A model generated the notes under the pieces. It had not been told where the DNA came from and did no database searches. It saw nothing but the letters and a program-made list of their open reading frames with translations. A stretch of 64,000 nucleotides of DNA from Bdellovibrionota bacterium (lineage in GTDB: Bacteria; Bdellovibrionota_C; UBA2361; CAKMMH01). Positions 28,687 to 52,847 of this stretch are shown piece after piece; positions within the stretch are counted from its first letter, which is position 1; each line of letters opens with the position of its first letter. A program made the position numbers and the translations under genes. Location: the NCBI GenBank assembly GCA_050952645.1, contig JBMNLI010000009.1:1800-65799 (forward strand). The letters run 5' to 3'.

Positions 28687-29550
28687 ATGAAAAAGCCTGT
28701 TTGGTTTAAAAAAGCACCACTTGGAAGAGAAATTGGATCGAAAAATTTTATAGAACTTAAAAATATTATAGAAGATAGAGGTATTTTTACTGTTTGCAGG
28801 GAGGCAAAATGCCCAAATATAGGCGAGTGTTGGACGCATAGGACTGCAACTTTTATGATATTAGGCGATACTTGCACTAGAAATTGTGCATTTTGCTCAA
28901 TCAAAAAAGCTAGTGATGGGCATAAGTTAGCTTTGCCGAGCGATAAAGAGATAGAAAATATATCAAAAACTATTTATGAATTAAACTTAAAACATGCAGT
29001 TATAACGACCGTTACTAGAGACGATTTAAAAGATGGAGGAGCTATGCATTTTTATAAATTATGCATTAACATTCATAAGCTTCTTCCCTCGTGTACAATT
29101 GAGCTTTTAATTTCAGATTTACATGGCAATATAGAATCTTTAAAAACTATTTTATCTGCCCCCATTTCTATTTTAAATCATAATATTGAAACCGTGCCGA
29201 GCCTTTATAAAAAAATTAGACCGATGGCAAGTTATGAGCGTTCTTTAAAAATACTTAGCGAGGCTAAAAAAATATCTCCTAAGATTCGCACGAAGTCTGG
29301 AATGATGCTAGGGCTCGGAGAAACTAAAGATGAGATTTTAAAAACTATGGACGACCTGCTTAATGCAAACGTCGATATTTTAACTTTAGGACAATATTTA
29401 CAGCCGACTAAAAACCAAGTTCCCGTAAAAGAGTTTATCCCCCCAGAGCAATTTAACGAATATAAAAAAATTGGACTACAAAAAGGCTTCGATATCGTTG
29501 AAGCTAGCCCTTTTACTAGAAGCTCTTATAATGCTAGAAATCATGTATAA
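28687..29550 (+). CDS. lipA: lipoyl synthase
   Basis: 287 aa. CREAKCPNIGEC (auxiliary cluster) and CTRNCAFC (radical-SAM cluster). Confidence 0.9.
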   Translation: MKKPVWFKKAPLGREIGSKNFIELKNIIEDRGIFTVCREAKCPNIGECWTHRTATFMILGDTCTRNCAFCSIKKASDGHKLALPSDKEIENISKTIYELNLKHAVITTVTRDDLKDGGAMHFYKLCINIHKLLPSCTIELLISDLHGNIESLKTILSAPISILNHNIETVPSLYKKIRPMASYERSLKILSEAKKISPKIRTKSGMMLGLGETKDEILKTMDDLLNANVDILTLGQYLQPTKNQVPVKEFIPPEQFNEYKKIGLQKGFDIVEASPFTRSSYNARNHV

Positions 29551-29555
29551 AAATT

Positions 29556-29871
29556 GGTTCTTCACATTTTAGGTGGGTTAGAAAAATTGTTTTTGGAGGT
29601 TAGCTTAAAAGAAAATTGGAGCTAGCTAAAGCTAGCGGAGATTTTCTTTTGGGCTTCGTGGGGTTGGTGATACTAATTTTAAGGCCCAAAACCTACCTTA
29701 AAACGTGAAGAGCCTTGTTTTTGGGGTTTGATAATGCTTATAGTAAAGCTTATCCCTGAATGTATTTTTAAAAAGCTTAAAATGTAAAACTAGAAAAAAA
29801 TAAAAGGTTCTTCACGTTTTAAGAGGGCTTAGAAAGATTGTTTTTTGGGTTACCTTAAAACGTGAAGAGCC
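29556..29871 (+). mobile_element. composite MITE-like insertion (full unit 29556..29714 plus short unit 29806..29871) flanked by 8-bp TSD TAAAAATT
   Basis: Termini GGTTCTTCACATTTTAGGTGGG ... CCTTAAAACGTGAAGAGCC. TAAAAATT occurs at 29548-29555 and 29872-29879. The left TSD overlaps the lipA stop codon. Confidence 0.7.
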
Positions 29872-30045
29872 TAAAAATTTAAAGTCTAGTAAAAAACAAT
29901 AAGTTTAAAACTTTTATATTTCTATACGCAAAATTATTTGATATATTTCTATTAAATCATCTAAAAAAAAGAAGAGAGACATTTACAAAATAAACTTTTG
30001 TGTCATCTTTAGATTCATTTAAAAAAATTCTATTTGGAGGAATAA

Positions 30046-30429: not shown

Positions 30430-30538
30430 GTAAAAAAATAATTAAAAAAGTAATTAAAGAAAAATAATAAACTAAAGAAATAAAAATTTAAGATTTTAAA
30501 AAGGAAAGCTTATTAAAAAAGGCTTTCCTTTTTTATCT

Positions 30539-30610
30539 TAAACTTTCCCTTGTTTTACGTATAAAATTTAATTTTAACTTTATAACCTACTCAAAATAAT
30601 TTAAAAAATT
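30539..30610. repeat. ~70-bp dispersed repeat (AAACTTTCCCYTGTTTTACGTATA...AATTTTAATTTTAA), solo copy
   Basis: Near-identical to 35771..35845. Its first 25 bp also occur inverted at 35948..35972. Confidence 0.5.
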
Positions 30611-32729: not shown

Positions 32730-33107
32730 TTAATTTTTCATTTCATATAGTGCATGTTTATTATCTCTAAATAGTAATAAAAAATCATTACTTTTGAATA
32801 ATTTTTTATCGATACTACTTTTACCATCTACTAAAGTGTATTTAGCTTTTTCTTTTATACTGTACTGTTTCATATTATCTGATGATTTAAGAGATAAAAA
32901 GTAATTTTTATAACTTTCTTCCCCTAGTAGTGTATTTCTATCATCGATAACGGGCTTAACGCCATCTCTTAGGTGCCATAAAAAACCTGGGTCGTTAAAA
33001 AAATTTTGCGATTTTAACATTAGTAGCAGGCAAAATAATATTGTAGCTACTAATATGGTAGCAAGACTTATTTTAAATAACTTTTTTTTATCTTTCTTTA
33101 ATATCAT
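32730..33107 (-). CDS. small membrane-anchored hypothetical protein
   Basis: 125 aa, one N-terminal TM helix. Confidence 0.4.
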   Translation of the reverse strand: MILKKDKKKLFKISLATILVATILFCLLLMLKSQNFFNDPGFLWHLRDGVKPVIDDRNTLLGEESYKNYFLSLKSSDNMKQYSIKEKAKYTLVDGKSSIDKKLFKSNDFLLLFRDNKHALYEMKN

Positions 33108-33188
33108 TTAGAGTTATTTTTATTATTTTGTAAAAATATAAAATTTTAGTTCTTTACATTTAAAGATATTTTTTAATTATGCACACGT

Positions 33189-33272
33189 ATGCTTAATATT
33201 ATATGCTTAATATTATATGCTTAATATTATATGCTTAACATTGCACGCTTAATATTGCACGCTTAATATAAA
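33189..33272. repeat. six tandem 14-bp units (ATGCTTAATATTAT x3, then degenerate ACGCTTAATATTGC-like x3) in an intergenic/promoter region
   Basis: Direct reading. Lies about 80 bp upstream of the minus-strand ORF start at 33107. Confidence 0.8.
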
Positions 33273-33354
33273 TGTGGAGTGTCAATATTTTGATGATAAA
33301 AAGCAAAGAACGTTTCTAGGAAAAGACTTTAATTCTTCACGTTAAAAGATGGTT

Positions 33355-34126: not shown

Positions 34127-35292
34127 CTATTTTAACACTTTCCACTCTAGGTCTTGTTTAGTGCCTACTTGCTCAATATAAGATTTTTTTCTAAGCGATG
34201 CTAGTGTTCGTTGAACGGTTCTTGCAGTTTTAGAAATCTTATCTGCCAACTCCTGTGTCGATAGGGTAGGGTTTTGTTTTAATAGAGCATACACCGCTTT
34301 TTCAGTGCCATTTAAAGTCGCATCTAAAGTAATTTTTGAAATATCGCCTTGAATTAAAGGGCGATAGATTATAAATTTAAATCCGTTTTCTTTATTTTCA
34401 TAAGCATACTTGATTTTTGAATCTTTACACAAACTATCTATTCTCTTAAAACCACTACCAAACTGCTCTATGTATTTACTTAAATATAAAATTTTTGAGA
34501 TTGTCGCATTTCTTATTTCAGACTCAACATTTCCTTTTATATAATCTTCAGGTTTATGCTTACTAGCATAATTCCCAGGGCTATATATAGTTATCATACT
34601 CGGGTGAATACATATCTCATGGATAGTCTTACTTCCATATAATGCATGAGCAAACCCATTTGCTAAAATCTGGTTCTTCACGTTTTAGGTGGGTTAGAAA
34701 AATTGTTTTTGGGGGTTAGCTTAAAAGAAAATTGGCTTTTATAGAAAACTATCTATAGTTTAAAGAAAAATTACAACTATATTTAAAGTAATTTATTTTA
34801 TGCAAATTTCTTTAAAGTCAATTTTCTTTTGGGCTTCGTGAGGTGAGTGATACTAATTTTAAGGTCTTTAGCCCACTTAAAACGTGAAGAGCCTAAAATC
34901 TCTCTAATTACCACAGTCGGAACTTCTGGAATTTCAATTCTTTCAGAGCCTATAATTTCACTTTTCCATCTAATGTTTTTAAATATATAATCTTCCGCCT
35001 TACTTAATAAATTATAAATATTATCTTCATATAATTTCATATCTAGTATGGTTAGTTTTTCATCCGTTGCAAATATACCAACTTTTAACTGCACGGGATT
35101 AGTGCTACTAAAAAGAACCTCCCCGGCATTAATTAAATACTCATCTTTAACTAGACCAAATTTATTTAAAATCATTGGGACGGTATACTTACCATCGGGC
35201 AATCTCCCTGCCTTAATCGCTTTTTGCCAAAAAGATTTCACAGCCTTTTTATCAACTTGGTTCGATAAAGAGGTAGATTTTCCAAGGTTCAT
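34127..35292 (-). pseudogene. AlbA_2 (Schlafen-like) / HATPase_c_4-type putative transcriptional regulator split by a MITE insertion
   Basis: Upstream part 35292..34798 and downstream part 34681..34127 are separated by element 34672..34893. Removing the element and one TSD copy restores ...VVIREIL|ANGFAHALYGS..., matching the AlbA_2 hallmark RExxxNAxxHRDY. The C-terminal part carries a winged-helix (LSTQELADKISKTARTVQRTLASLRKKSYIEQVG). Confidence 0.7.
34672..34893 (+). mobile_element. MITE-like element (222 bp), 16-bp TIRs GGTTCTTCACGTTTTA / TAAAACGTGAAGAGCC, perfect 8-bp TSD TAAAATCT
   Basis: TSD at 34664-34671 and 34894-34901. The internal sequence is shared with copies at 29556, 41164 and 51243. 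Confidence 0.85.
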
Positions 35293-35299
35293 TTTATAT

Positions 35300-36140
35300 C
35301 TCTCCTTTTTTTTCTAAGCGACACTTTTGTCGCCAGTGACGACATTTTTGTCGTCACCTTTTTTAAACAAAATAAAACTTTGTCTAGTTTAATTTAGCAA
35401 TTATACATTCTCCTTTAATAACAATATGTTATGCCATTTCTAAGGCGTTTTAAACTAAAATTTTTTATAGATTATAGCCATAAACTAAACACTTTTTTTA
35501 AGCTATATGCGACACTTTTGTCGCCAGTGACGACATTATTGTCGCCTATAGCGACATTTTTGTCCATCTCCTTTTTTAAAGAAAAGAAAGCTTGTCTAGT
35601 TTAATTTGGCAAATATATATTCTCTTTTAATAACAATATGTTATACCATTTCTAAGGCGTTTTAAACTAAAATTTTTTATAGATTATAGCCATAAACTAA
35701 ACACTTTTGTCGCTATATGCGACACTTTTGTCGCTAGAGGCGACACTTTTGTCGCCCTCCTTTTTTAGTTTAAACTTTCCCCTGTTTTACGTATACAATT
35801 TTAATTTTAATTGCATAACTCACTGAAATCATTTAAAAAAATTTTTAAAAGTGCTTGCACAAAATGCTAAAATAGCATACGTATTATACGTATACCCTTA
35901 AGAAACGACAGATACCAGCCTTAGGCTAAATTTTAGGCTCTTAAAAAACTATAGTATACGTAAAACAAGGGAAAGTTTGGGATAGATTACAGCCATAAAC
36001 TAAACACTTTTTTTAAGCTATATGCGACACTTTTGCCAACTAGTGACGACATTATTGTCGCCTATAGCGACACTTTTGTCGCCACTTTTTTTTAAAAGAG
36101 AATAAAACTTTGTCTAGTTTAATTTGGCAATTATAGTATT
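35300..36140. repeat. three direct copies of a ~210-220-bp promoter/leader-like module rich in perfect hairpin palindromes
   Basis: Marker GTCTAGTTTAATTT(A/G)GCAA recurs at 35382, 35594 and 36112. Each module carries GCGACACTTTTGTCGC and GTGACGACATTTTTGTCGTCAC palindromes followed by a T-run. It also carries a minus-strand TGTATAAT -10 box oriented toward the AlbA_2 gene start. Confidence 0.6.
35771..35972. repeat. 202-bp segment bounded by perfect 25-bp inverted repeats AAACTTTCCCCTGTTTTACGTATAC ... GTATACGTAAAACAAGGGAAAGTTT
   Basis: Inserted between modules 2 and 3 of the array above. Interior has a TTGCAC ... TGCTAAAAT promoter-like pair. The left 70 bp equal the solo repeat at 30539. Confidence 0.5.
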
Positions 36141-36782
36141 TTGTTTATTTTTAATATCTTTTTAATTATACTACTTAATATGGAATTTAAAATTATAGAA
36201 ACAACTTTTATAGGTGGCTACAATGTGCTTTCTAAAATGCCTACAAACTTACCACAAATAGCACTTCTTGGGCGCTCAAATGTGGGAAAATCAACGCTAG
36301 TAAATAAATTATGCAAAAGAAACTCGCTAGCTAAAACTAGCAAAACCCCAGGACGCACTAAAGAGTTTAACTTCTTTGAAATCACTTATAAAATTGATGA
36401 AACTAAAAATAAATTCCACTTAGTAGATCTCCCAGGGTTTGGATTTGCTAAATTTTCAAAAACAAAACAAATATCGCTTAACAAAAATATCGTCAAATAC
36501 CTAGCCTCAGATTTACCACTTCTTGGCGTGTTTCTCCTAAACGATTCTAGAAGAACACCTAAAGAAGATGAACTAGCCATTCAAAAATTATGCTTTGAAA
36601 ATAATAGATTCCTACAAATTATTTTAACTAAAATCGATAAACTTAAAAAAAATGATATAAAAAAGCAATTATCCATTATCGCTGCTAGCTACAACTTAGA
36701 GCCACAAGATTTACTACTAAGCGGAAACGATATAGACACTAATAATATTTGGAAAAGAATTTTTGAAAGTGGTTTCTTATAA
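36141..36782 (+). CDS. engB: ribosome-biogenesis GTPase EngB/YsxC (YihA)
   Basis: G1 GRSNVGKST, G3 DLPGFG, G4 TKIDK. Likely true start at the internal MEFKI (36181). Confidence 0.8.
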   Translation: MFIFNIFLIILLNMEFKIIETTFIGGYNVLSKMPTNLPQIALLGRSNVGKSTLVNKLCKRNSLAKTSKTPGRTKEFNFFEITYKIDETKNKFHLVDLPGFGFAKFSKTKQISLNKNIVKYLASDLPLLGVFLLNDSRRTPKEDELAIQKLCFENNRFLQIILTKIDKLKKNDIKKQLSIIAASYNLEPQDLLLSGNDIDTNNIWKRIFESGFL

Positions 36783-38290: not shown

Positions 38291-39292
38291 TTAAATAGCC
38301 CCATTATAATAATCTGCTACCTCTTTAAAATTCTCGTTTAAAAATTTCCTTAATTTTACTTTTATCTCATTTTCAATCTGCCTAACTCTCTCTTTGCTAA
38401 TATTTAACATTTGAGAAAGATCTTCTAAAATTACTTTTTCAGAATTTAGTAAACGTTTTTCAAAAATTACTTTTTCCCTTTCAGTCAATGTTTCTTTAAA
38501 TTTATTAAATCCAAGAACAATTAAATCATTTATTTGCTTTTGCGCAAGGAGTTCTTCAGCGGTCTTTCCTTTTGCAGGTATTACATTTGCTGGGGTAGCT
38601 AAAGTGTCGCTACTTAGTGGAGCATCTAAACTTAAGTCTCCAAGGTGTAGCCTTTTATCCATTTCTATAACTTCATGTTCTTTAACATTTAGCCTTTCTG
38701 CTAAAAGTTTTGTAGTAGGATAAATTCCTTCTTTCTCTAATTTTTCTTTTTCTTTTCTTAAATTAAAAAATAATTTTCTTTGTGCTTGCGTCGTTCCAAT
38801 TTTCACTAGACGAATATTTGCCATAATATATCTAATAATGTAAGCCTTTATCCAAAGCACTGCATAAGCTGGAAAATTAGCCCCCTTGTCGGGATCAAAA
38901 TTTTTTACAGCTTCCATAAGCCCTATATTGCCCTCTTGGATAACATCTAATAAATTTCTTGCTATACTCTCATAATTTCTTGCAATGCGAACGACTAACC
39001 ATAAATTACTAGAAATCAGTTTATACGCCGCTTCTAAATCATTTTCTTCTCTATACGCCTTTAAAAGCTTAATCTCCTCTTCACGAGTTAGTCTAGAATA
39101 CTGTTTTATCTTAATAAGGTATGCTCTAAGTGCATCAAAACTTGCTAACTCTCGCCCTCTAGCGGCAGGTAAAAGGCTAGTAGTTTGCTTTTTAGGTAGC
39201 AGTTCATCCCTATTTTCACTAGGTGGAAGCACTTCCATGTTTTTATTATCAAAATCTATATATTTATAGTATTTATCATCTTTTAAAGCCAT
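38291..39292 (-). CDS. sigma-70 family RNA polymerase sigma factor (group 1/2-like, 333 aa; no region 1.1)
   Basis: Region 1.2 (DALRAYLIKIKQYSRLTREEEIKLLKAY), region 2 (LIQEGNIGLMEAVKNFDPDKGANFPAYAVLWIKAYIIRYI), region 3, region 4 HTH (LSQMLNISKERVRQIENEIKVKLR). Subfamily not resolved. Confidence 0.8.
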   Translation of the reverse strand: MALKDDKYYKYIDFDNKNMEVLPPSENRDELLPKKQTTSLLPAARGRELASFDALRAYLIKIKQYSRLTREEEIKLLKAYREENDLEAAYKLISSNLWLVVRIARNYESIARNLLDVIQEGNIGLMEAVKNFDPDKGANFPAYAVLWIKAYIIRYIMANIRLVKIGTTQAQRKLFFNLRKEKEKLEKEGIYPTTKLLAERLNVKEHEVIEMDKRLHLGDLSLDAPLSSDTLATPANVIPAKGKTAEELLAQKQINDLIVLGFNKFKETLTEREKVIFEKRLLNSEKVILEDLSQMLNISKERVRQIENEIKVKLRKFLNENFKEVADYYNGAI

Positions 39293-39451
39293 ATCTGCTT
39301 ATTTTACCAAGTTTTAAATTATATTGCTATATCATTAACTTTTCTATTAAGAAAAATTTTATAATATACCGATTATATTAAGGTAAGTTAAATAAAATTT
39401 AAAAAAGTTTATAAAAAATTTTTATATACTATAAAAAGGCTAGGAGTATAG

Positions 39452-41146
39452 GTGCATACAAAAATTGGCGACTTGCTACTACATAGCGGTTTAATTACCG
39501 AAAAACAGCTTGAAGATGAGATGAGCAACAACTCGTCTTCTATTAGCTTAGGTCTGAATTTTATAAAATCAGGGATTATCTCTGAAGAAAAATATCTAAA
39601 TACTTTAAGCTCGCAATTTGAAACTGAAATTATAAACTTAGACAATATTACTTTCGATGATGAAGTATTAAATCTTATTCCATATAATATTTATAAAAAA
39701 TATGGAGTTCTTCCAATTTCAAAAACTAACGACAGAATAACAGTAGCGATGGTAGACCCATCAAACATTGCAGCCCTAAACGATATTAAATTTATTACAG
39801 GACTAGAGGTTAATATAAAACTTGCATCTCCTGTAAAAATGAAAGCTACTCAAGAAAAATTATTCGATAAAAAAGTTTCTTATGAAAGCATTATAGACGA
39901 CCTAGAAGAAGAAAGCGTCGAGTATATAAAAGACGATGAAAATATAAATCTTTCTGAATTAGAAAAACAAACCGAGGATGCACCAGTAGTAAAGCTTGTA
40001 AATGCAGTGCTAACCGACGCCATAAAAAAAGGCGCATCAGATATCCACATAGAACCTTATGAGAAAGCGTTTAGAGTTCGATTTAGAATAGATGGAGTGC
40101 TTTATGAAATTATGAAGCTTCCTATAAATTTAAAAAATGCTATCACTTCGAGAATAAAAATTATGGCTAGTCTCGATATAGCGGAAAGACGACTTCCACA
40201 AGATGGAAGAATAAAACTAAAACTTCAAGAAAATAATAAAGAGATGGATTTTAGGGTAAACGTAGTGCCTACACTTTTTGGAGAAAAGGTTTGTTTAAGA
40301 TTATTAGACCCCGATAGCTTACAACTAGATATGACTAAACTAGGATTTACTGAAAATCAAATTTTAGATTTTAAAGATGCCATAAATAAACCTTTTGGAA
40401 TGGTTTTAGTAACTGGGCCTACTGGTTCAGGAAAAACTACCACTCTCTACTCTGCTCTTTCTGAGCTTAATCAAATAGGCTCTAACATTAGCACTGCGGA
40501 AGACCCCGTAGAGTTTAACCTTATGGGAATAAATCAATGTCAAATAAATGAAGATATAGGATTTGATTTTGCTAGCGCTCTAAGAGCTTTCTTAAGGCAA
40601 GACCCCGATATTATAATGGTAGGTGAAATAAGAGATTACGAAACTGCGCAAATAGCAATTAAGGCCTCTCTTACTGGGCACTTAGTGCTTTCTACACTTC
40701 ACACGAACGATGCCCCATCAACCATAAACAGGCTTATCGACATGGGAGTTGAACCTTTTTTAGTAGCCTCTTCGACTAATTTAATATTAGCACAAAGACT
40801 TGCAAGAAAAATTTGTTCTAACTGCAAAGTAGATGATAGTGAAATTACGAAAGATTTATTGCTCCGTGCGGGAGTTCCTAAGGAAGATATCGAAAACTTT
40901 TCTTGCAAGCGAGGTGTCGGTTGTGATGAATGCTCGGGAACGGGCTATAAAGGAAGAATAGCGCTCTATGAAGTAATGCCGATAAAAGAAGAAATTTCAG
41001 AACTTATTTTAAAAGGTGCAAATTCGGCAGAAATAAAAAAACTAGCAAAATCTTTAGGGATGTTAACGCTAAGAGATAGCGCTCTTTTAAGATTAAAGGA
41101 AGGGTTAACCTCATTTGAAGAGGTTGTCAGAGTTACTAGTTTATAG
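39452..41146 (+). CDS. GspE/PilB-family secretion ATPase (type IV pilus assembly or T2SS ATPase); GTG start
   Basis: 564 aa. N-terminal T2SSE_N-like domain, Walker A GPTGSGKTTTLYSAL, Asp/His boxes, tetracysteine motif CSNCK...CDECSGTGYKGR. Confidence 0.85.
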   Translation: MHTKIGDLLLHSGLITEKQLEDEMSNNSSSISLGLNFIKSGIISEEKYLNTLSSQFETEIINLDNITFDDEVLNLIPYNIYKKYGVLPISKTNDRITVAMVDPSNIAALNDIKFITGLEVNIKLASPVKMKATQEKLFDKKVSYESIIDDLEEESVEYIKDDENINLSELEKQTEDAPVVKLVNAVLTDAIKKGASDIHIEPYEKAFRVRFRIDGVLYEIMKLPINLKNAITSRIKIMASLDIAERRLPQDGRIKLKLQENNKEMDFRVNVVPTLFGEKVCLRLLDPDSLQLDMTKLGFTENQILDFKDAINKPFGMVLVTGPTGSGKTTTLYSALSELNQIGSNISTAEDPVEFNLMGINQCQINEDIGFDFASALRAFLRQDPDIIMVGEIRDYETAQIAIKASLTGHLVLSTLHTNDAPSTINRLIDMGVEPFLVASSTNLILAQRLARKICSNCKVDDSEITKDLLLRAGVPKEDIENFSCKRGVGCDECSGTGYKGRIALYEVMPIKEEISELILKGANSAEIKKLAKSLGMLTLRDSALLRLKEGLTSFEEVVRVTSL

Positions 41147-41163
41147 AAAGTTTAAAAAAATAT

Positions 41164-41973
41164 GGTTCTCACGTTTTGGGTGGGTTAGAAAAGTTGTTTT
41201 TGGGGGTTAGCTTAAAAGAAAATTGGCTTTTATAGAAAACTATCTATAGTTTAAAGAAAAATTACAACTATATTTAAAGTAATTTATTTTATGCAAATTT
41301 CTTTAAAGTCAATTTTCTTTTGGGCTTCGTCGAGGTGAGTGATACTAATTTTAAGGTATAAAATCACCTTTAAAAGTGAAGAACAAAAGTTGTTTTTGGG
41401 GGTTAGCTTAAAAGAAAATTGGCTTTTATAGAAAACTATCTATAGTTTAAAGAAAAATTACAACTATATTTAAAGTAATTTATTTTATGCAAATTTCTTT
41501 AAAGTCAATTTTCTTTTGGGCTTCGTCGTGGTGAGTGATACTAATTTTAAGGTATAAAATCACCTTTAAAAGTGAAGAACAAAAGTTGTTTTTGGGGGTT
41601 AGCTTAAAAGAAAATTGGCTTTTATAGAAAACTATCTATAGTTTAAAGAAAAATTACAACTATACTTAAAGTAATTTATTTTATGCAAATTTCTTTAAAG
41701 TCAATTTTCTTTTGGGCTTCGTCGAGGTGAGTGATACTAATTTTAAGGTATAAAATCACCTTTAAAAGTGAAGAACAAAAGTTGTTTTGGGGGGTTAGCT
41801 TAAAAGAAAATTGGCTTTTATAGAAAACTATCTATAGTTTAAAGAAAAATTACAACTATATTTAAAGTAATTTATTTTATGCAAATTTCTTTAAAGTCAA
41901 TTTTCTTTTGGGCTTCGTCGAGGTGAGTGATACTAATTTTAAGGTCTTTAACCCACTTAAAACATGAAGAGCC
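41164..41973 (+). mobile_element. MITE-like element (810 bp) whose 196-bp internal unit is tandemly amplified about 4 times
   Basis: Left end GGTTCTCACGTTTTGGGTGGG, right end CCACTTAAAACATGAAGAGCC. Flanks AAAAATAT / AAAAACAT (7/8). Unit copies start at 41193, 41389, 41585 and 41781. Confidence 0.75.
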
Positions 41974-42010
41974 AAAAACATTTTAAGAGTTTAAATTAAA
42001 GGAAAAAATT

Positions 42011-43231
42011 ATGCCTGTTTTTTTGTGGGAAGGAAGAGATGCAAAAGGAAATATAGTTTCTGGCGAACTTGAAGCTTTAGATAAAATTGCCGTTTTTAAT
42101 TTATTAAAAGCTAGAAATATAAACGTCAATACTTCTAAAATACAAGAAAAAGGAAAAGGAATGAATAAGGAAATAAAAATTCCTCTTCTAGCTCCTAAAA
42201 TCAAAGAAAAAGATATTTCAGTTTTTACTAGGCAACTTTCTACGATGATCGATGCTGGGCTTCCATTAGTTCAAGGGCTAGGTATCTTAGCAAAACAATC
42301 CTCAAATCCTGCATTTACGAGTATGATTGAAACCGTAAAAAATGAGGTCGAGTCTGGAAAAACATTTACAGAAAGTTTAAAGCTATTTCCTAAGCATTTC
42401 GATGCGCTTTATGTAAATATGATAGACGCTGGTGAGAACGGCGGTATTCTAGATGTAATCTTAGATCGTCTTTCAGTTCATATGGAAAAATCTATAAAAT
42501 TAAAACGTGAGGTAAAGACGGCTTTAATCTACCCTACCGTTGTAATAAGCGTAGCAGTGATAGTTACTGCCGTTTTACTAATTTTTGTTATTCCAACATT
42601 TGCTGAACTTTTCGAGGATTTTGGTGCAGAACTTCCAGCCCCTACGCAAATAGTAATAAATATATCAAATTTTTTCGTTGCCAACTTAGCGTTTATCGTA
42701 TTTGGATTTCTAGGCTTGATTATAGGATTTTTTAAATTTTCAAAAACGGAACGTGGGCAAAATGTTTTACACCCTATTTATTTAAAACTTCCTGTGTTTG
42801 GAGATTTAATAAAAAAAGTAGCGGTAGCTAGATTTACAAGAACGCTCGGAACGATGCTTTCATCTGGCGTGCCTATTTTAACCGCATTAAATATTTGTTC
42901 AAGAACTGCTGGAAATAAAGTAGTAGAGCATGAAGTGCAAAAAGCTCGTTTCGCAATCTCGGAAGGAAAGCAGATGGAGGCTACACTTAGCGAGTCGAGC
43001 GTTTTTCCACCGATGGTAACTCAAATGATAGGTGTAGGTGAAACTAGTGGAGCGCTAGATCAAATGCTAAATAAAGTTGCCGATTTTTATGAAGAAGAAG
43101 TTGAAAATGCCGTAGGAGCTTTAAAGCAACTAATCGAACCTATAATGATTTTATTTCTAGGAGTCGTTATAGGGGGACTAGTTATTGCTATGTATCTACC
43201 TATATTTAAACTTGGGGCTATTACAGGGTAA
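42011..43231 (+). CDS. GspF/PilC-family inner-membrane platform protein
   Basis: 406 aa, two T2SSF domains and three TM segments. Downstream of the GspE/PilB-like gene. Confidence 0.85.
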   Translation: MPVFLWEGRDAKGNIVSGELEALDKIAVFNLLKARNINVNTSKIQEKGKGMNKEIKIPLLAPKIKEKDISVFTRQLSTMIDAGLPLVQGLGILAKQSSNPAFTSMIETVKNEVESGKTFTESLKLFPKHFDALYVNMIDAGENGGILDVILDRLSVHMEKSIKLKREVKTALIYPTVVISVAVIVTAVLLIFVIPTFAELFEDFGAELPAPTQIVINISNFFVANLAFIVFGFLGLIIGFFKFSKTERGQNVLHPIYLKLPVFGDLIKKVAVARFTRTLGTMLSSGVPILTALNICSRTAGNKVVEHEVQKARFAISEGKQMEATLSESSVFPPMVTQMIGVGETSGALDQMLNKVADFYEEEVENAVGALKQLIEPIMILFLGVVIGGLVIAMYLPIFKLGAITG

Positions 43232-43291
43232 AATCACAAGGTTAAAGTTATAAGGTTAAATCATAAGGACAAATTGACTTTTTGTTTTTTC

Positions 43292-45214
43292 TTAACTTTC
43301 CAAAATCTCTTTTATATCTAAAGGTATATCTAAAGGTTTTGTAATTATTTTTTTTACTCCATATTTTTTATATTCATCGATATCTATATTAGTTTTTCCA
43401 GTAAGGATAAATACATCTACACTTATCTTCTTTTCTTTTAAAAACTCTAGTAAAGTATCTACCCTTTCTTTTCCTATATAATAATCGCTTATAATTAAAT
43501 CCACACTATTTGATAACAAAAACTTTTTAGCATCTTTTATATTAAAAAAACTTTGAACTAAAAAATCGTAAGCCTCTAATAACCTTTTAGTGCTTTCTAA
43601 CAACTCTTTATCATCATCTATAAGCACTATCTTTTTTGCTTTTTTATCTTCTATAGCAAGTTTATTTATACCACTTACCTTTTCTTTAATAAAAGGCATT
43701 TTAAGTGTAAACTCACTTCCTTTATTTTCAGTAGAAACCACGGATACCGTTATATCGTTTAAATCTGAAAAAGCTTTAACCATAAAAAGCCCGAGACCGT
43801 AGCCATCTAAATGTTCAGCGTTCTCTCCTCTTTTAAACGAAGAGAATATTTCTTGCAAATTTTCTTTCTTTATTCCTATTCCAGTATCTGAAATTTTTAT
43901 AACTATATTATTTTTTGCGTTCGTGCACTCTATATCGATATGTCCTTTTTCAGTATACTTAATAGCATTAGAGATTATATTATTTATAATCTTTTTAAAC
44001 TGCCTTTTATCTGCGTATATAATTTTATTTTTAAGGTTATCTTTAAAATTTATTTTCAAATTCTTTTCACTAGCTCTTAAATAAAAATTATTAACGGCAT
44101 ACTTAAGTTCATCACTAACATTTACGTTTTCTTTAAAAACTTTTAAATCCGAATTTTTATACTTTGAAAAATCTAGCAAGTCTTCTAATAAAAGCGAAAT
44201 AGAATCGCAATTATTTAGCGCTATCTCTATAAATTCTTTTTTATTTTCTTCATCAGAATTTATCTCTAATAATTTTAACACTGCTACTAGGTTTGCAAGA
44301 GGTGAGCGTAAATCGTGAGATACAAACTCTAAGTATTCACTCTTTTTTATCGCTTCTTTAGTCTTTTTTTCAATTTCATTCTTAGCACTTTTTAATTTTA
44401 GATACGTTTCATACTGGTTTCCTATTTCATAAGATAAATTATTAAATAAATTTTCCTCTTTTAAAAAACTTATATCATCTCCAGAAATACCAAACCATAA
44501 ATATATTATAGTATTACTATCATTTGAAAATTTTATTTTTTTTATAATCGCTCTTTGGTATCCAAAAAGTGATAAATCTTCTAAAACGTTAGAAACGTTA
44601 TAATAACTTACAACGCCTTCTTTTATCTCCTTTTCGTTTGCTATACAATTTAAAAACATTTGTTTTAAAAACATTGAAACGTGTTTATTAGATGAAAGCG
44701 AACTTAGAGAAAAACAATTACCACTTTCTTTATCGTAATAAAATAAAACTATCGCATTTTTTTGGTAAAACCCAGAAAGTATATTTAGTATATTTTGAAA
44801 AAAACTTTGTTCATCTATTTCAGGATTGATATCCATTTTTTTAAGAAAATTTATAGGATTGTTTAAATCTTCATTCTTATAATCTTCACTATCTTTTTTT
44901 AACAAAAAAACTTTTCTCTCTAAAAACAAAAGATACTCATTTAATGTTTTTCCAATTGGAGTGCTATATTTAACGTCTTCTTTTTTTCTTGTAAAAGTAT
45001 TTATAGTTTTTATAAAGTTAGCAAATTGTTTTTTAAACTTACCTATATCATCAAAGCAAAGTAAAATTACTACTAAAAGCGTATATAATACAAAGGCTAT
45101 TAAAAATAAGATTTCACTCTTACTAGCTAAATGTATATTTACTAAATATAAAAGATACGTAATTAAAATGCCTATTAGCACGGTAAATAATTTTATTTTT
45201 GTTATAAATTTCAT
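43292..45214 (-). CDS. hybrid sensor histidine kinase / response regulator
   Basis: 640 aa. Two N-terminal TM helices, HisKA H-box FVSHDLRSPL, HATPase_c (DTGIGIKKENL...GYGLGLFMVKAF), C-terminal receiver (KIVLIDDD...DLIISDYYIG...ILTGK). Confidence 0.8.
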   Translation of the reverse strand: MKFITKIKLFTVLIGILITYLLYLVNIHLASKSEILFLIAFVLYTLLVVILLCFDDIGKFKKQFANFIKTINTFTRKKEDVKYSTPIGKTLNEYLLFLERKVFLLKKDSEDYKNEDLNNPINFLKKMDINPEIDEQSFFQNILNILSGFYQKNAIVLFYYDKESGNCFSLSSLSSNKHVSMFLKQMFLNCIANEKEIKEGVVSYYNVSNVLEDLSLFGYQRAIIKKIKFSNDSNTIIYLWFGISGDDISFLKEENLFNNLSYEIGNQYETYLKLKSAKNEIEKKTKEAIKKSEYLEFVSHDLRSPLANLVAVLKLLEINSDEENKKEFIEIALNNCDSISLLLEDLLDFSKYKNSDLKVFKENVNVSDELKYAVNNFYLRASEKNLKINFKDNLKNKIIYADKRQFKKIINNIISNAIKYTEKGHIDIECTNAKNNIVIKISDTGIGIKKENLQEIFSSFKRGENAEHLDGYGLGLFMVKAFSDLNDITVSVVSTENKGSEFTLKMPFIKEKVSGINKLAIEDKKAKKIVLIDDDKELLESTKRLLEAYDFLVQSFFNIKDAKKFLLSNSVDLIISDYYIGKERVDTLLEFLKEKKISVDVFILTGKTNIDIDEYKKYGVKKIITKPLDIPLDIKEILES

Positions 45215-45226
45215 ATAAAATATTTC

Positions 45227-46330
45227 CTAACTTAAAAAGTTTTTTACTATATCTTGTAAATATTCTAAAGAAAAATCGTTTTCTATATAATAGTCAACCC
45301 CGTAAAGATATGCTTCTATTTCATTTATATTTTCATTTGCAATTAAAATACTACGCATTTTTTTATTATTTGATTTAAAAACTTTCTCTTCGTTTTTTAA
45401 TGTTTCTTTATCTAAAGATATGATTAGCACTTTAAATTTATAATTTTTATAATCATTAAATAAATCGAAAAAACTTTCATAGTTTCTCACGAATATATTA
45501 CTATTCTTAAACGCATTAAAAACTTTTTCTCTTAACTTTTCATCTTTTGAAACTAACGCAATATTATTAGTGCTAGCTAAAACTTTTTTAGGAATTGCCC
45601 AGCTCAGCATTATAACGTTTCCTAAATTATTTAATTTTATCTTCCGAACTTTAAAAAAGTTATCTTTTTTTATTTTATAAAAAAAATTACTCTCTAAATT
45701 TAGCCAAAACTCGCTTAAATCTTGATTGATAATATTTCCTTTCTTCCACTCTTTAGCTTTATCTTGGTAACTATAAAAAACCTTATTTTGAGCATACTCG
45801 AAAACTAGCCTAGAAATATGTTTTTCTTCACACTCTATAATTAAAGCTTTTAATGTCTTTAAAAAAACATCACTTGCGCCATCTTTTTTATTTTCACCGC
45901 TTTCAAGTAGTGATAAAAATTCTGTTATATCATTTCCTAGCGTTAAATAAATTTTAACATTTTCATCTATATTAAATTTTTCAAATATCAAAAAAGGGTT
46001 TGATGATATTATTGCTATCAACTTAAACTCATTTATTATTGGACAAAAACCGTATTTTTTTAACACATCAAAGTTTTTAATATTTTTTTTTATCTCTTTA
46101 ATATTTAAATCGTTAAGTCCTATTTTATAATCGATATTAGTAAGAGTTTTAATATTTTCAAAAAACTCTATCTTATTTAGATTAAAAGAGTTTATAAAAA
46201 AATCTAAATAATATCTTTTATCTATCTTATAATTAAATAGACTATCTTTATAATACACTCGGTATAAATTTTTTATTAAACCTTTTAAAGATGTAATTCC
46301 ACATTTTTTTAGTTTTACAAAGTTTTTCAT
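45227..46330 (-). CDS. hypothetical cytoplasmic protein inside the tad cluster, possibly with a degenerate receiver-like C-terminal domain
   Basis: 367 aa, no signal peptide or TM helix. C-terminal KVLIISLD...ILIANENINEIEAYLYGVDYYI loosely resembles a REC fold without the canonical acidic pocket. Weak call. Confidence 0.4.
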   Translation of the reverse strand: MKNFVKLKKCGITSLKGLIKNLYRVYYKDSLFNYKIDKRYYLDFFINSFNLNKIEFFENIKTLTNIDYKIGLNDLNIKEIKKNIKNFDVLKKYGFCPIINEFKLIAIISSNPFLIFEKFNIDENVKIYLTLGNDITEFLSLLESGENKKDGASDVFLKTLKALIIECEEKHISRLVFEYAQNKVFYSYQDKAKEWKKGNIINQDLSEFWLNLESNFFYKIKKDNFFKVRKIKLNNLGNVIMLSWAIPKKVLASTNNIALVSKDEKLREKVFNAFKNSNIFVRNYESFFDLFNDYKNYKFKVLIISLDKETLKNEEKVFKSNNKKMRSILIANENINEIEAYLYGVDYYIENDFSLEYLQDIVKNFLS

Positions 46331-46333
46331 TTT

Positions 46334-46840
46334 CTAAAATTCATAAGTTACTAATATTTGCTTAGTTTTAATAATATCATTTGGCATTAGATTTAAAAAA
46401 TCACCGCCCATTCTTGCGCATTCTTTGAAATTCATTTCACTTTTTAAAGTTATAAAATACTGCGGAATGTTTCTTTTAACTAAAGTGTCTTCATAATTTT
46501 TAGTGCTTTTAATTAACTTAAAATCGTACTTAATTTCGCAGTGATTATTTTCTCTAAGCTTCCTTAGCTTATCATTTATTAAATTTTTAATATTATCTTT
46601 ACTTTCTTTTATTACTGTAAAATTCTCATCAAGTTTTAAAACGAACTCTTTTCTATTACCGAACGCATTATCTACCTTTTCTTCTAATAAATAGCTAAGC
46701 CTATAATACTCCATAATACCTAACACGTTATAAATAAAAGGAAGTAAAACTGCCATTGCAACGCAAAACTCTAGCAAAGATAAGCCTTTGTTAAATCTAC
46801 AAAAAGATAAGAGAAAACGTTTATTTTTCTTTATCGCCAT
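46334..46840 (-). CDS. TadE/TadF-like minor pseudopilin
   Basis: 168 aa. N-terminal GLSLLEFCVAMAVLLPFIYNVLGIMEY matches the Flp/TadE-type prepilin G/xxxxE(F/Y) motif plus one TM helix. Overlaps the upstream gene by 10 nt. Confidence 0.55.
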   Translation of the reverse strand: MAIKKNKRFLLSFCRFNKGLSLLEFCVAMAVLLPFIYNVLGIMEYYRLSYLLEEKVDNAFGNRKEFVLKLDENFTVIKESKDNIKNLINDKLRKLRENNHCEIKYDFKLIKSTKNYEDTLVKRNIPQYFITLKSEMNFKECARMGGDFLNLMPNDIIKTKQILVTYEF

Positions 46841-48222
46841 ATAGAACCTTCCTTTTTATTTAACCAAATAAAATCTCTAATATCATCGGATAATTTTTCA
46901 CTAGAGTTTTGATGTAATAAAAAAAGCTTTATCGTTTTATCTTTTTTATTATATCTTTTAATAAAGGTTTTATGTTTAGAAATAGAGGCACTACTTAAGC
47001 CTGGCACTTTATTAGTTTGAAATAAAACGTAAATAATATTTAATTTAAAGTTTACTCCTTTTAAGATCTCATCTAAACCATCTAGCGAGGTTTCTATGGC
47101 GGTTAAATCAAAAGTATGAAGATTAGAAGAAAAAATAAATAAGTTTTTATTTAAATCTTCTGAAAGAGTATTCCTATCTGCTCTCCCCTTAGCACTAATT
47201 AAAGTTCTTCCTGCACTTTCTAATACATTTATAAAATTAGCTTTATATCCTTTATGAACTGGTGTTGACCAAATGGAGGTTAGCACGCTTGCTTTACCAT
47301 CTTCAACACTATTATTTTCTAAATTATTTATAATTTTATAATCATCTCTTACTAAAGGAAACCGATATCTTATCTCTTGCAACTCATTTAGAGCAGCATT
47401 AAAACAGTCTAAACTTTTAAAGCCATCGTCTGACGTATAATATAAAAACTTTGCCTCATTATTTAAAAAAGAAGCTGCACTGATATTTTTTATATACTCT
47501 ATATCTCTCTTATAACTTCCTCCTGGAAAAACTCCTACACCTACCGAGTTTAAGTGAGTGCTACCGTAAAAATTATAAGTATCTATTAGTATATTTTTTA
47601 ATGGGGAAAATACTTCATTAAAACATTGCTGTGTATAATATCTAGGGCTACTAGTAAACTTATCATCGTTTTGTTCAAAATACATAGCGCTTGGTGCCTC
47701 TCCTACGCTTCCCCATAATTTTTTTTTATCATTTGGTGAGTTATATAAGTTTCTATCTAGTAAAAGTAGCACATCACTTACACTAGGGGTTGCATAAGAA
47801 AAAGCATTTAGTGGGTACGATATAATAGTTTTTTTATTACTACCTTTTTCATTACTACCTATAAAAAACTTAGTAAGGTTTGAAAACAACAGCTCGTAGT
47901 TTCTTTTATAAGATATTCTTATTCCAGTATCATCGGCGATAATTTCTAAACTATCATCTTCTAATCCTTGATTTAAAAGATAGCTTCTCGTTATATTTAA
48001 TGCATAATCTTTATATGGATAAAATTTAACGCCTTGCAAACTAGCTTCATCTAAAATTTTTTGCACGCTTCTTTTTGCAGTATACAAAGAAGCAACATCG
48101 AATGTAATCATAAGTAAGAATGATAAGGTAGGAATAACAAATAAAACAAAGAAAATTAGAGTGCTTCCATTTTGATTATAAGTTTGATTATATCTTTGAT
48201 TATTAAATAATTTATTTATCAT
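46831..48222 (-). CDS. TadG-like pilus assembly protein (TadE-like N-terminal TM plus large periplasmic domain)
   Basis: 463 aa. N-terminal GSTLIFFVLFVIPTLSFLLMITFDVASLY resembles the TadE/TadG signature. Confidence 0.5.
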   Translation of the reverse strand: MINKLFNNQRYNQTYNQNGSTLIFFVLFVIPTLSFLLMITFDVASLYTAKRSVQKILDEASLQGVKFYPYKDYALNITRSYLLNQGLEDDSLEIIADDTGIRISYKRNYELLFSNLTKFFIGSNEKGSNKKTIISYPLNAFSYATPSVSDVLLLLDRNLYNSPNDKKKLWGSVGEAPSAMYFEQNDDKFTSSPRYYTQQCFNEVFSPLKNILIDTYNFYGSTHLNSVGVGVFPGGSYKRDIEYIKNISAASFLNNEAKFLYYTSDDGFKSLDCFNAALNELQEIRYRFPLVRDDYKIINNLENNSVEDGKASVLTSIWSTPVHKGYKANFINVLESAGRTLISAKGRADRNTLSEDLNKNLFIFSSNLHTFDLTAIETSLDGLDEILKGVNFKLNIIYVLFQTNKVPGLSSASISKHKTFIKRYNKKDKTIKLFLLHQNSSEKLSDDIRDFIWLNKKEGSIWR

Positions 48223-48235
48223 ATTTTTACATTTC

Positions 48236-49863: not shown

Positions 49864-49886
49864 ATATTTTTTTTATATTTTTTTAT

Positions 49887-51212: not shown

Positions 51213-51242
51213 AATTTTCTCCTAAACTTATCTTATATTTTT

Positions 51243-51347
51243 GGCTCTTCACGTTTTAAGGTAGGTTTTAGACCTTAAAATTAGTATCACTCACCTCGAC
51301 GAAGCCAAAAAAACAATTTTTCTAACCCACCTAAAACGTGAAGAACC
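51243..51347 (-). mobile_element. short (105 bp) deletion derivative of the MITE family, inverted orientation, perfect 8-bp TSD ATATTTTT
   Basis: GGCTCTTCACGTTTTAAGGTAGG ... CCACCTAAAACGTGAAGAACC. TSD at 51235-51242 and 51348-51355. Sits in the cpaB-tadA intergenic region. Confidence 0.8.
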
Positions 51348-51452
51348 ATATTTTTTAATTTTACTTTTAAAATTCTAAGTTTCTCGTTTCACGTTTTTTT
51401 ATTTTACAATTTTATTTTATATTTTTATTTATCATTAATTATTTATCATTAA

Positions 51453-52798: not shown

Positions 52799-52847
52799 AT
52801 ATTCTCCTTTTATAAGAAAAAATAAAAAATTAAATTTAAAACTAAAT

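What the first reader, a model, noticed from the sequence alone, without database searches (positions are those of the whole stretch)
34672..34893. Candidate undescribed MITE family (GG(T/C)TCTTCACGTTTTA termini, 8-bp AT-rich TSD) at four loci within 22 kb
Four insertions share termini and internal sequence: 29556-29871, 34672-34893, 41164-41973 and 51243-51347. Three of the four (34672, 51243 and the composite at 29556) have perfect 8-bp target duplications (TAAAATCT, ATATTTTT, TAAAAATT); the 41164 copy has a 7/8 imperfect one. The two halves are partly self-complementary (…AAAAGAAAATTGG / CCAATTTTCTTTT…), so each copy can fold into a long hairpin. No transposase lies in the window, so the elements are non-autonomous. 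GG-start termini with 8-bp AT-rich TSDs are, as far as I recall, reminiscent of ISL3-family ends, but that needs checking. The density (four copies in 22 kb, all in or at the edge of one pilus/regulator neighbourhood) suggests recent activity. A degenerate solo terminus (AATTCTTCACGTTAAAAG) may also sit at 33320-33337.
Basis: seen in the sequence. Interest (0 to 1): 0.75.

Follow-up and report, generated by a model that had tools for sequence, protein, structure and literature searches.

The report
ISL3-type MITE family, recently active
Small non-coding "jumping" DNA elements with ends typical of ISL3 insertion sequences sit at four places in this uncultured Bdellovibrionota genome, and two of them are missing from a 99.4%-identical sister strain, so they moved recently; this is a well-documented but ordinary kind of mobile element.

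Summary
Five elements at four loci share termini GG(T/C)TCTTCACGTTTTA and a roughly 24-bp imperfect inverted repeat. The units are modular, at 66, 105, 159 and 222 bp, and one 810-bp copy holds four 196-bp tandem units. All four loci carry 8-bp AT-rich target duplications.

Insertion is shown directly. A sister strain (Logan ERR10905742, 99.4% identical) has exact empty sites, each with a single copy of the 8-mer, at the pilB/pilC and rcpC/cpaF loci. Removing the 222-bp copy plus one duplication restores one ORF, which aligns gap-free to intact homologues. The lipA-site copy is shared by both strains and is therefore older.

The elements encode nothing, fold into long hairpins (z = -4.9 to -8.7), and no ISL3 transposase lies nearby.

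The termini and the 8-bp duplication match ISL3-family insertion sequences tested here: ISAeme19, ISKox3, ISCfr12, and a 1,315-bp ISL3 element that carries the identical 16-mer at its tip. They also match a published ISL3-linked Microcystis MITE. The partner transposase and the genome-wide copy number could not be determined, because the source is a MAG. No family-specific match was found in the other collections searched.

Verdict: a new member of a known kind. The odd details are a strand-biased G·T wobble and the tandem array.

The parts
34672..34893 (+). 222-bp full-length MITE copy, running from the GGTTC left end to the GAGCC right end. It is inserted inside a gene on the minus strand.
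   Evidence: Sequence; both termini match the 16-mer with 0 mismatches. Hairpin of -75 kcal/mol, z = -8.7. Removing it plus one duplication restores the ORF.
34664..34671 (.). Left copy of the target duplication TAAAATCT. The right copy is at 34894-34901.
   Evidence: Read directly.
34127..35292 (-). Host gene split by the 222-bp copy. It encodes a HATPase_c_4 plus winged-HTH protein, and the restored product is 311 aa.
   Evidence: The restored ORF is and its Pfam domains. It aligns with 0 gaps over 308 aa at 79% identity to the 444-aa homologue P0014, straight across the excision junction.
29556..29714 (+). 159-bp copy with the same arms as the 222-bp copy and a short, different centre (AGCTAGCTAAAGCTAGCGGA). 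It forms the left half of a composite.
   Evidence: hairpin z = -7.4. The same junction is present in the sister strain ERR10905742 (L114).
29715..29805 (.). 91-bp spacer carried between the two elements of the composite. It begins TTGTTTTTGGGG, like the inner part of a left arm, and has no other copy in the window.
29806..29871 (+). 66-bp minimal copy, little more than the two inverted repeats. It forms the right half of the composite.
   Evidence: hairpin z = -8.5.
29548..29555 (.). Left copy of the duplication TAAAAATT, which flanks the whole composite. The right copy is at 29872-29879. It includes the lipA stop codon TAA (29548-29550).
   Evidence: Read directly.
41164..41973 (+). 810-bp copy between pilB and pilC. 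It consists of a 25-nt left arm followed by four 196-bp tandem units (41189-41384, 41385-41580, 41581-41776, 41777-41972).
   Evidence: The whole copy is absent from sister strain L110, which keeps a single AAAAATAT.
41156..41163 (.). Left copy of the duplication AAAAATAT. The right copy, AAAAACAT at 41974-41981, matches 7 of 8.
   Evidence: The two blastn pieces of L110 overlap by exactly 8 nt here.
51243..51347 (-). 105-bp copy lacking the central module, in inverted orientation. It lies between rcpC/cpaB and cpaF of the Tad pilus locus.
   Evidence: hairpin z = -7.5. Absent from sister strain L110, which keeps a single ATATTTTT.
51235..51242 (.). Left copy of the duplication ATATTTTT. The right copy is at 51348-51355.
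   Evidence: The two blastn pieces of L110 overlap by exactly 8 nt here.

Best explanation
These are copies of one family of non-autonomous DNA transposons (MITEs). They keep only the ends of an ISL3-family insertion sequence, plus a hairpin-forming interior.

Proposed mechanism: an ISL3-type DDE transposase encoded elsewhere in the genome binds the roughly 24-bp terminal inverted repeats (GGTTCTTCACGTTTTA-GGTGGGTT on one end, GGCTCTTCACGTTTTAAGGTAGGTT on the other). It moves the element, probably through a circular copy-out-paste-in intermediate as reported for ISL3 elements. It inserts the element into AT-rich 8-bp targets, which are duplicated.

Size variants of 66, 105, 159 and 222 bp arise by internal deletion or replacement of the centre. 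Two neighbouring copies plus their spacer can move as one composite (29556-29871). One copy (41164-41973) contains a four-unit tandem array of 196 bp.

Shown: the repeat family, its inverted repeats, the 8-bp duplications, precise empty sites in a sister strain, the gene disruption, the lack of coding capacity, and the match of the ends and duplication length to ISL3 elements.

Inferred: that the mobilising enzyme is an ISL3 transposase, that it is present in this organism, and the transposition pathway.
For: - **Family and termini:**
- **Duplications:** four 8-bp AT-rich duplications.
- **Empty sites:** sister strain ERR10905742 (L110, 99.4% identical over 9.3 kb) lacks both the 810-bp and the 105-bp copies. 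The blastn pieces overlap by exactly the 8-bp target at each site.
- **Older copy:** the lipA-site copy is present in both strains.
- **Excision test:** removing 34672-34893 plus one duplication gives a 311-aa ORF that aligns gap-free to intact homologues.
- **No coding capacity:** the longest open frame in a unit is 31 aa. There is no ISL3 transposase in the window or in the 8 related Logan contigs.
- **ISL3 link, L098:** this is a 1,315-bp element with the identical 16-mer at one tip, a 3-mismatch copy at the other, a 400-aa DDE_Tnp_ISL3 transposase (E = 2.7e-68) and a 7/8 8-bp duplication. The same MAG has two more copies.
- **ISL3 link, annotated elements:** ISAeme19 has GGTTCTTCGCGG / GGTTCATCGCGG ends with the duplication TTATTTTT. 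ISCfr12 and ISKox3 have GGGTCTTCCC ends with perfect 8-bp duplications.
- **Literature:** a 187-nt Microcystis MITE with GGCTCTTCG ends and 8-nt repeats was matched to ISL3 transposases (PMC11448079). Circular intermediates are listed for ISL3 (bioRxiv 10.1101/2023.06.07.543989; PMC7986276).
- **Junctions confirmed independently:** Logan contigs of the same strain read into the elements at the same positions (L109, L111, L113).
Against: - No cognate transposase was found, and the rest of the genome could not be searched. The one genome-collection scan was saturated by chance 16-mer hits.
- No further family members were found in JGI metagenomes, viral contigs, plasmids or phages. Copy number beyond this 64-kb window and the sister strain is therefore unknown.
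- L098 was found by searching for the 16-mer, so that match is selected. Its location exactly at an IS tip is the informative part.
- The Acidaminococcus multi-copy element with the same end could not be assigned to a family.
- The repeat number in the 810-bp array depends on the MAG assembly being right.
Confidence: 0.8

Rival explanations
1. It is a MITE, but it is mobilised by a transposase of another family that also makes 8-bp duplications and has GG tips (IS6/IS26, or IS256 or ISAs1). The resemblance of the ends to ISL3 would then be coincidental.
For: IS6-family elements make 8-bp duplications, have GG at their tips, and a few IS6 MITEs exist (PMC7986276). No ISL3 transposase was found near the elements.
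Against: The IS6 inverted repeats carry conserved cTGTt and caaa motifs, which are absent from GGYTCTTCACGTTTTA. The first 8 nt, GG(Y)TCTTC, fit the GG(N)TC(T/A)TC start of every tip I located on the ISL3 elements examined (three annotated elements with both tips, two with one). The full 16-mer is the tip of a real ISL3 element.
Confidence: 0.1
2. The elements spread by transposition but are retained because the hairpin works in RNA. In the sense transcript of operons (lipA to the downstream ORF, pilB-pilC, rcpC-cpaF) it would act as a cis-acting stabiliser, processing site or attenuator. This adds to the best explanation rather than replacing it.
For: Mismatches between the arms are overwhelmingly G·T on one strand: G·T versus A·C counts of 8:0, 7:3, 7:1 and 4:0. 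The GGUUC strand folds 14-23 kcal/mol better than its complement in every copy. All three intergenic loci place that strand in the sense transcript.
Against: The copies share ancestry, so the wobble bias may be a single inherited property of one master copy. Three loci give no statistical power on orientation. The intragenic copy is antisense. No promoter-like or terminator-like signal rises above shuffled background. No expression data are available.
Confidence: 0.15
3. The repeats are not mobile. They would be remnants of segmental duplication or recombination, or independent structured RNA genes or terminators.
For: None beyond the shared sequence and hairpin potential.
Against: The flanks are unrelated and every locus has an 8-bp duplication. 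There are two precise empty sites in a 99.4%-identical strain, and one gene is split and restored by excision. There is no Rfam match in the window apart from 16S rRNA.
Confidence: 0.01

Closest known systems
187-nt MITE of Microcystis aeruginosa PCC 7806, assigned to ISL3-family transposases (PMC11448079)
   Same: Non-coding, with a stem-loop. The inverted repeats begin GGCTCTTC, there are 8-nt direct repeats, and insertion differs between closely related strains.
   Different: The sequence is unrelated beyond the first ~8 nt and the host phylum differs (Cyanobacteria). In Microcystis the matching ISL3 elements were seen in the same genome. Here the partner is unknown, and the family shows 66-222-bp size variants, a composite and a tandem array.
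ISL3-family insertion sequences: ISAeme19, ISKox3, ISCfr12 (annotated plasmid copies) and the 1,315-bp element in Gammaproteobacteria MAG bin17 (L098)
   Same: Tips of GG(N)TC(T/A)TC..., inverted repeats of about 24 bp, and 8-bp duplications that are often AT-rich. L098 shares the exact 16-mer GGTTCTTCACGTTTTA.
   Different: Those are 1.3-kb autonomous elements encoding a DDE_Tnp_ISL3 transposase. The window elements are 66-810 bp and encode nothing.
BrickBuilt MITE of Porphyromonas gingivalis, which contains a minisatellite (PMC4596501)
   Same: A MITE whose body contains a tandem array between leader and tail parts with inverted-repeat ends.
   Different: BrickBuilt repeats a 23-nt unit and belongs to another family. 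Here the repeated unit is 196 bp, almost the whole element, and only one copy is expanded.
Correia (Neisseria), ERIC/IRU (enterobacteria) and RUP (pneumococcus) elements (comparison from my own knowledge)
   Same: Short hairpin-forming MITE-like repeats in or between operons. Some act at the RNA level.
   Different: Those have TA or other short duplications and different parent families (for example IS630-type for RUP). There is no sequence similarity.
IS6/IS26-family elements and their rare MITEs (PMC7986276)
   Same: 8-bp duplications and GG at the tips.
   Different: The IS6 inverted repeats carry conserved cTGTt and caaa motifs that are absent here.

Membership tests
Bacterial MITE (non-autonomous TIR transposon) | Terminal inverted repeats at both ends | tested here: met
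   The 16-nt tips are identical apart from the T/C difference at position 3 and one point change each in the 29556 and 41164 copies. They extend to about 24 bp with one indel, in all five elements.
Bacterial MITE (non-autonomous TIR transposon) | Target-site duplication of fixed length flanking each insertion | tested here: met
   There are four 8-bp duplications, three perfect and one 7 of 8. Each 8-mer is single in the empty sites.
Bacterial MITE (non-autonomous TIR transposon) | Small size and no transposase coding capacity | tested here: met
   Units are 66-222 bp. The longest open frame in a 222-bp unit is 31 aa. There are no ISL3 profile hits.
Bacterial MITE (non-autonomous TIR transposon) | Independent insertions, shown by presence/absence polymorphism or empty sites | tested here: met
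   Two exact empty sites in ERR10905742. One copy is shared by both strains. One gene is restored by excision.
Bacterial MITE (non-autonomous TIR transposon) | Multiple copies genome-wide | tested here: inconclusive
   Five elements lie in 22 kb of the window.
ISL3-derived element | Ends of the ISL3 type, GG(N)TC(T/A)TC... | tested here: met
   GG(T/C)TCTTCACG was compared with ISAeme19 GGTTCTTCGCGG, ISKox3 and ISCfr12 GGGTCTTCCC, a Paenibacillus element GGCTCTTCGC, and L098 GGTTCTTCACGTTTTA. Microcystis has GGCTCTTCG.
ISL3-derived element | 8-bp target duplication | tested here: met
   It is 8 bp at all four loci. It is also 8 bp in ISAeme19, ISKox3 and ISCfr12 as read here.
ISL3-derived element | Cognate ISL3 transposase with matching ends in the same genome | not testable with these tools
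   None lies in the window or the 8 related contigs. The source MAG is not searchable here.
ISL3-derived element | Sequence continuity between the MITE subterminal regions and a parent IS | not tested
   No parent is known. The only hint is that the left arm read backwards ends in AAA ACG TGA, like the transposase stop codon inside the inverted repeat of L098.
IS6/IS26-derived element | Inverted repeat with GG tips plus conserved cTGTt and caaa motifs | tested here: not met
   The motifs described in PMC7986276 are absent from GGYTCTTCACGTTTTA.
Tn3-derived TIME | About 38-bp Tn3-type inverted repeats and 5-6-bp duplications | tested here: not met
   PMC4133298 gives 38-bp repeats and 5- or 6-bp duplications. 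Here the repeats are about 24 bp and the duplications 8 bp.
REP/BIME (RAYT-mobilised) | Short palindromes without target duplications | tested here: not met
   All loci have 8-bp duplications and terminal inverted repeats. The REP features are from my own knowledge.

The most novel reading that the evidence does not exclude
The hairpin is under strand-specific constraint as RNA, or as single-stranded DNA. Nearly all arm mismatches are G·T on the GGTTC strand, and that strand is the sense strand at all three intergenic insertions. The family would then double as a mobile cis-regulatory RNA hairpin. By landing between pilB and pilC and between rcpC and cpaF, and by expanding into a 196-bp tandem array, it would retune type IV and Tad pilus operon expression between otherwise identical strains of a predatory-phylum bacterium.
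Probability: 0.12. Interest if true: 0.5.

Novelty: new member of a known kind. Interest (0 to 1): 0.3.

Why it matters
This is a clean, sequence-level example of recent transposition in an uncultured, AT-rich Bdellovibrionota lineage. Two strains that are 99.4% identical differ by MITE insertions inside two pilus operons. One gene is split, and a composite of two MITEs has moved as a unit.

It is useful in three practical ways:
- **Annotation.** The 184-aa and 164-aa 'proteins' in the NCBI record are two halves of one disrupted gene.
- **Assembly.** Short-read contigs of both strains break at these repeats.
- **Strain typing.** The insertions serve as markers for strain typing.

It adds a family to the short list of ISL3-linked MITEs. 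It does not change how such elements are understood.

Tried and rejected
1. **Genome-collection scan.** I scanned with the 16-mer GGYTCTTCACGTTTTA. Its useful by-products were L098, L019 and L106 (an ISL3 element with the same tip) and an unclassifiable multi-copy end in Acidaminococcus hominis.
2. **Metagenome and viral scans.** Two metagenome scans and two viral scans with family-specific 18-23-mers gave 0 hits.
3. **Plasmids and phages.** blastn of the 222-bp copy gave only AT-rich noise.
4. **Literature.** A full-text search for the terminal 16-mer gave 0 papers. No paper on MITEs in Bdellovibrionota turned up.
5. **Finding other insertion sites through proteins.** I searched the protein collection with concatenated MITE-encoded peptides, hoping to catch proteins whose ends run into a MITE. 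Nothing scored.
6. **Clostridia MAG220 loci (L017, L104).** I looked there for an ISL3 end, but no transposase was present.
7. **Acidaminococcus element.** Translating its end gave no ISL3 C-terminus.
8. **Nested-MITE idea.** I asked whether the central module (AAAAGAAAATTGG...CCAATTTTCTTTT) is a second MITE nested in the first. It has no clean ends or duplication of its own. One sister-strain contig end (L110) carries it in another context but is cut off, so this is unresolved.
9. **Promoter and terminator scans.** Nothing rose above background.
10. **The 'solo terminus' near 33331-33348.** Rejected as unsupported.

Full report
**What is there**

The window has about 29% G+C. It is part of a 73-kb contig of an NCBI metagenome-assembled genome labelled 'Bdellovibrionota bacterium' (proteins MGI66802xx). 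A 16S rRNA gene lies at 242-1764 on the minus strand.

The terminal 16-mer GGYTCTTCACGTTTTA, allowing up to 3 mismatches, occurs 15 times against 1.63 expected. None of 100 shuffles reached that number.

Every element starts GGTTC and ends GAGCC in its own orientation. The inverted repeat runs for about 24 bp with one indel.

**Anatomy**

Alignment of the copies shows a modular element with these parts:
- a left arm (GGTTCTTCACGTTTTAGGTGGGTTAGAAAAATTGTTTTTGG);
- an inner palindromic module (…AAAAGAAAATTGG … CCAATTTTCTTTT…) with a variable centre;
- a right arm (…GGCTTCGTCGAGGTGAGTGATACTAATTTTAAGGTC…TTAAAACGTGAAGAGCC).

| Copy | Size | Notes |
|---|---|---|
| 34672-34893 | 222 bp | complete |
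| 29556-29714 | 159 bp | short, different centre |
| 51243-51347 | 105 bp | lacks the inner module; inverted orientation |
| 29806-29871 | 66 bp | little more than the two ends |
| 41164-41973 | 810 bp | 25-nt left arm plus four 196-bp tandem units |

For the 810-bp copy:
- Units 1-3 are 99.5% identical to each other.
- Unit 4 is 94% identical to them, with the differences in the last ~30 nt.
- The left arm plus unit 4 makes a 222-bp element that is 97% identical to the 34672 copy.

No unit has an open frame longer than 31 aa. All copies fold into long hairpins that are far more stable than shuffled controls, with z from -4.9 to -8.7.

**Proof of insertion**

All four loci have 8-bp AT-rich duplications: TAAAATCT, ATATTTTT and TAAAAATT are perfect, and AAAAATAT/AAAAACAT is 7 of 8.

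Protein-cluster look-ups led to a second strain, in the Logan assembly of ERR10905742.
- Its 15.8-kb contig L110 is 99.4% identical to window 41974-51242 and 99.5% identical to 39070-41163.
- It lacks both the 810-bp and the 105-bp copies.
- The blastn pieces overlap by exactly 8 nt at each site, and the sequence there carries a single AAAAATAT and a single ATATTTTT.

These are exact empty sites. They also show that the imperfect duplication at 41164 is a later point change.

The third test is excision. Removing 34672-34893 plus one duplication joins the two annotated fragments (184 and 164 aa) into one 311-aa ORF with HATPase_c_4 and winged-HTH domains. That ORF aligns with 0 gaps over 308 residues, at 79% identity, to intact 444-aa homologues, straight across the junction.

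The lipA-site copy is present in both strains. Contig L114 of ERR10905742 ends in …TAAAAATT|GGTTCTTCACGTTTTAGGTGGGTTA. That insertion is therefore older, and the two pilus-locus insertions are younger.

Logan contigs of SRR31061295 are 100% identical to the window and stop a few tens of bases inside the elements. This confirms the junctions independently. It also shows that these repeats break short-read assemblies.

**The composite**

At 29556-29871, two elements sit side by side with a 91-bp spacer that has no other copy in the window. Neither element has its own duplication, but the outermost ends are flanked by TAAAAATT. The simplest reading is that the outer ends were used together and the pair moved as one unit, carrying the spacer. 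The duplication contains the lipA stop codon.

**Which transposase?**

The window and eight related contigs contain no ISL3-family transposase, by tblastn and by a profile of eight ISL3 transposases against all six-frame ORFs. The elements are therefore non-autonomous.

- **L098.** The otherwise unhelpful genome scan turned up a 1,315-bp element in a gammaproteobacterial MAG. One tip is exactly GGTTCTTCACGTTTTA, and it encodes a 400-aa DDE_Tnp_ISL3 protein (E = 2.7e-68). It is flanked by a 7/8 8-bp duplication, and two more copies occur in that MAG.
- **Annotated ISL3 elements from plasmids.**
  - ISAeme19 has GGTTCTTCGCGG… / GGTTCATCGCGG… ends with the duplication TTATTTTT.
  - ISCfr12 and ISKox3 have GGGTCTTCCC… ends with perfect 8-bp duplications.
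  - A Paenibacillus element has a GGCTCTTCGC… end.
- **Published precedent.** A 187-nt Microcystis MITE has GGCTCTTCG ends and 8-nt direct repeats, and its authors matched it to ISL3 transposases (PMC11448079).

The main alternative with 8-bp duplications and GG tips is the IS6/IS26 family. It has conserved cTGTt and caaa motifs in its inverted repeats (PMC7986276), which are absent here. Tn3-derived TIMEs (38-bp repeats, 5-6-bp duplications) and REP-type repeats do not fit either.

ISL3 elements are listed among families with circular intermediates and presumed copy-out-paste-in transposition. That pathway is inferred for these elements, not shown.

**What could not be settled**

Family-specific 18-23-mers found nothing in JGI metagenomes or viral contigs. 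The 222-bp copy has no real match in plasmids or phages. No paper holds the terminal 16-mer, and none on MITEs in Bdellovibrionota turned up. 'Undescribed' therefore rests on negative searches only.

The origin of the 196-bp array is also unexplained.
- The internal junctions are a diverged right end (…AAGTGAAGAAC) followed directly by the left arm minus its first 25 nt.
- A similar junction follows 29714 (GAGCC|TTGTTTTTGGGG).
- Unequal recombination between two adjacent copies is the simplest idea but is untested.
- The unit number depends on the MAG assembly being correct.

**A feature worth noting**

Mismatches between the two arms are almost all G·T on the GGTTC strand. The G·T versus A·C counts are 8:0, 7:3, 7:1 and 4:0 in the four unit types. 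As RNA, that strand folds 14-23 kcal/mol better than its complement in every copy.

At all three intergenic loci that strand is the sense strand of the flanking genes. The intragenic copy is antisense.

Because the copies share ancestry and there are only three loci, this may be no more than an inherited property of one master copy. It is still the kind of bias expected if the hairpin is constrained in a single-stranded form. Promoter-like and terminator-like scans were at background.

**Verdict**

This is a recently active MITE family with ISL3-type ends and 8-bp duplications, in an uncultured Bdellovibrionota lineage. It is a new member of a known kind. Interest is modest at 0.3. It would rise only if the strand-biased hairpin or the tandem expansion proved to have a regulatory role in the pilus operons.

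Noticed in passing
window 34672-34893, 29556-29714, 29806-29871, 51243-51347, 41164-41973: Arm mismatches are strand-biased. G·T wobble on the GGTTC strand versus A·C gives 8:0, 7:3, 7:1 and 4:0. The GGUUC-strand RNA folds 14-23 kcal/mol better than its complement. All three intergenic loci put that strand in the sense transcript.
   Followed up: partly
window 41189-41972 and 29714/29715: There is a recurrent junction type, in which a right end is followed directly by a left arm lacking its first 25-31 nt (…GTGAAGAAC|AAAAGTTGTTTTTGG and …GAAGAGCC|TTGTTTTTGGGG). Units 1-3 of the array differ from unit 4 only in the last ~30 nt. How the array formed is unexplained.
   Followed up: partly
window 29548-29555: The lipA stop codon TAA lies inside the duplicated 8-mer TAAAAATT, so the insertion landed exactly at the end of the coding sequence without changing the protein.
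   Followed up: yes
window 34199-36020: This 1.8-kb segment is missing from sister strain ERR10905742 (L112 joins 36021 directly to 34198). It holds the MITE-split gene and a 212-bp tandem repeat (35319-35756, with a further partial copy near 35972-36160). That repeat carries 21-bp palindromic sub-repeats of the form CGACAnTTTTGTCGCC, which look like iterons or operators.
   Followed up: partly
window 34127-35292 (minus strand): The split gene's closest intact homologues (79% identity, 444 aa) are from Clostridia-type MAGs (Christensenellaceae and others). The window copy also lacks residues ~8-136 (the AlbA_2 domain). It is probably a horizontally acquired gene that had already decayed.
   Followed up: partly
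window 30526-30580, 35758-35812, and inverted at 35941-35984: A different dispersed repeat of about 55 bp (TCCTTTTTTA..TTAAACTTTCCC.TGTTTTACGTATA.AATTT) at 82-85% identity. The sister-strain contig L112 ends at 30562, within the first copy.
   Followed up: no
window 32730-33107 versus L112 1088-2644: The 125-aa ORF in the window is the remnant of a 518-aa gene that is intact in the sister strain. About 1.16 kb is deleted in the window strain, with a 17-nt overlap at 32962-32978.
   Followed up: partly
window 33188-33269: A 14-bp tandem repeat, TATGCTTAATATTA, present 5.9 times at 92% identity. It lies between the HU-like gene and the truncated gene.
   Followed up: no
L110 (reverse complement) 12554-12778, next to window ~52550-52800: The sister strain diverges from the window around the flp pilin gene. 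Its contig ends in a copy of the MITE's inner module (82% identical) that has a different left neighbour and none of the usual right arm. Contig L123 of the same strain breaks inside flp at window position 52752.
   Followed up: partly
L098 890-2204; L117 388-1691: In the ISL3 clade of L098 and ISAeme19, the transposase stop codon lies inside the inverted repeat (…AAFPGKT* is encoded by AAA ACG TGA AGA ACC). The MITE's left arm read backwards gives …NNFSNPPKT* with the same AAAACGTGA. This hints that the left arm derives from the 3' end of a transposase gene.
   Followed up: partly
L015, L027, L050, L052, L064, L102 (Acidaminococcus hominis NSJ-142): Six contigs carry the same end of a multi-copy element, reading GGCTCTTCACGTTTTATTGTGGGATGGCAGATTTCTGCCATCC…, each with a different flank. 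Five of them start 108 nt inside the element, and in the sixth it lies at the other end of the contig. Its family could not be determined.
   Followed up: partly
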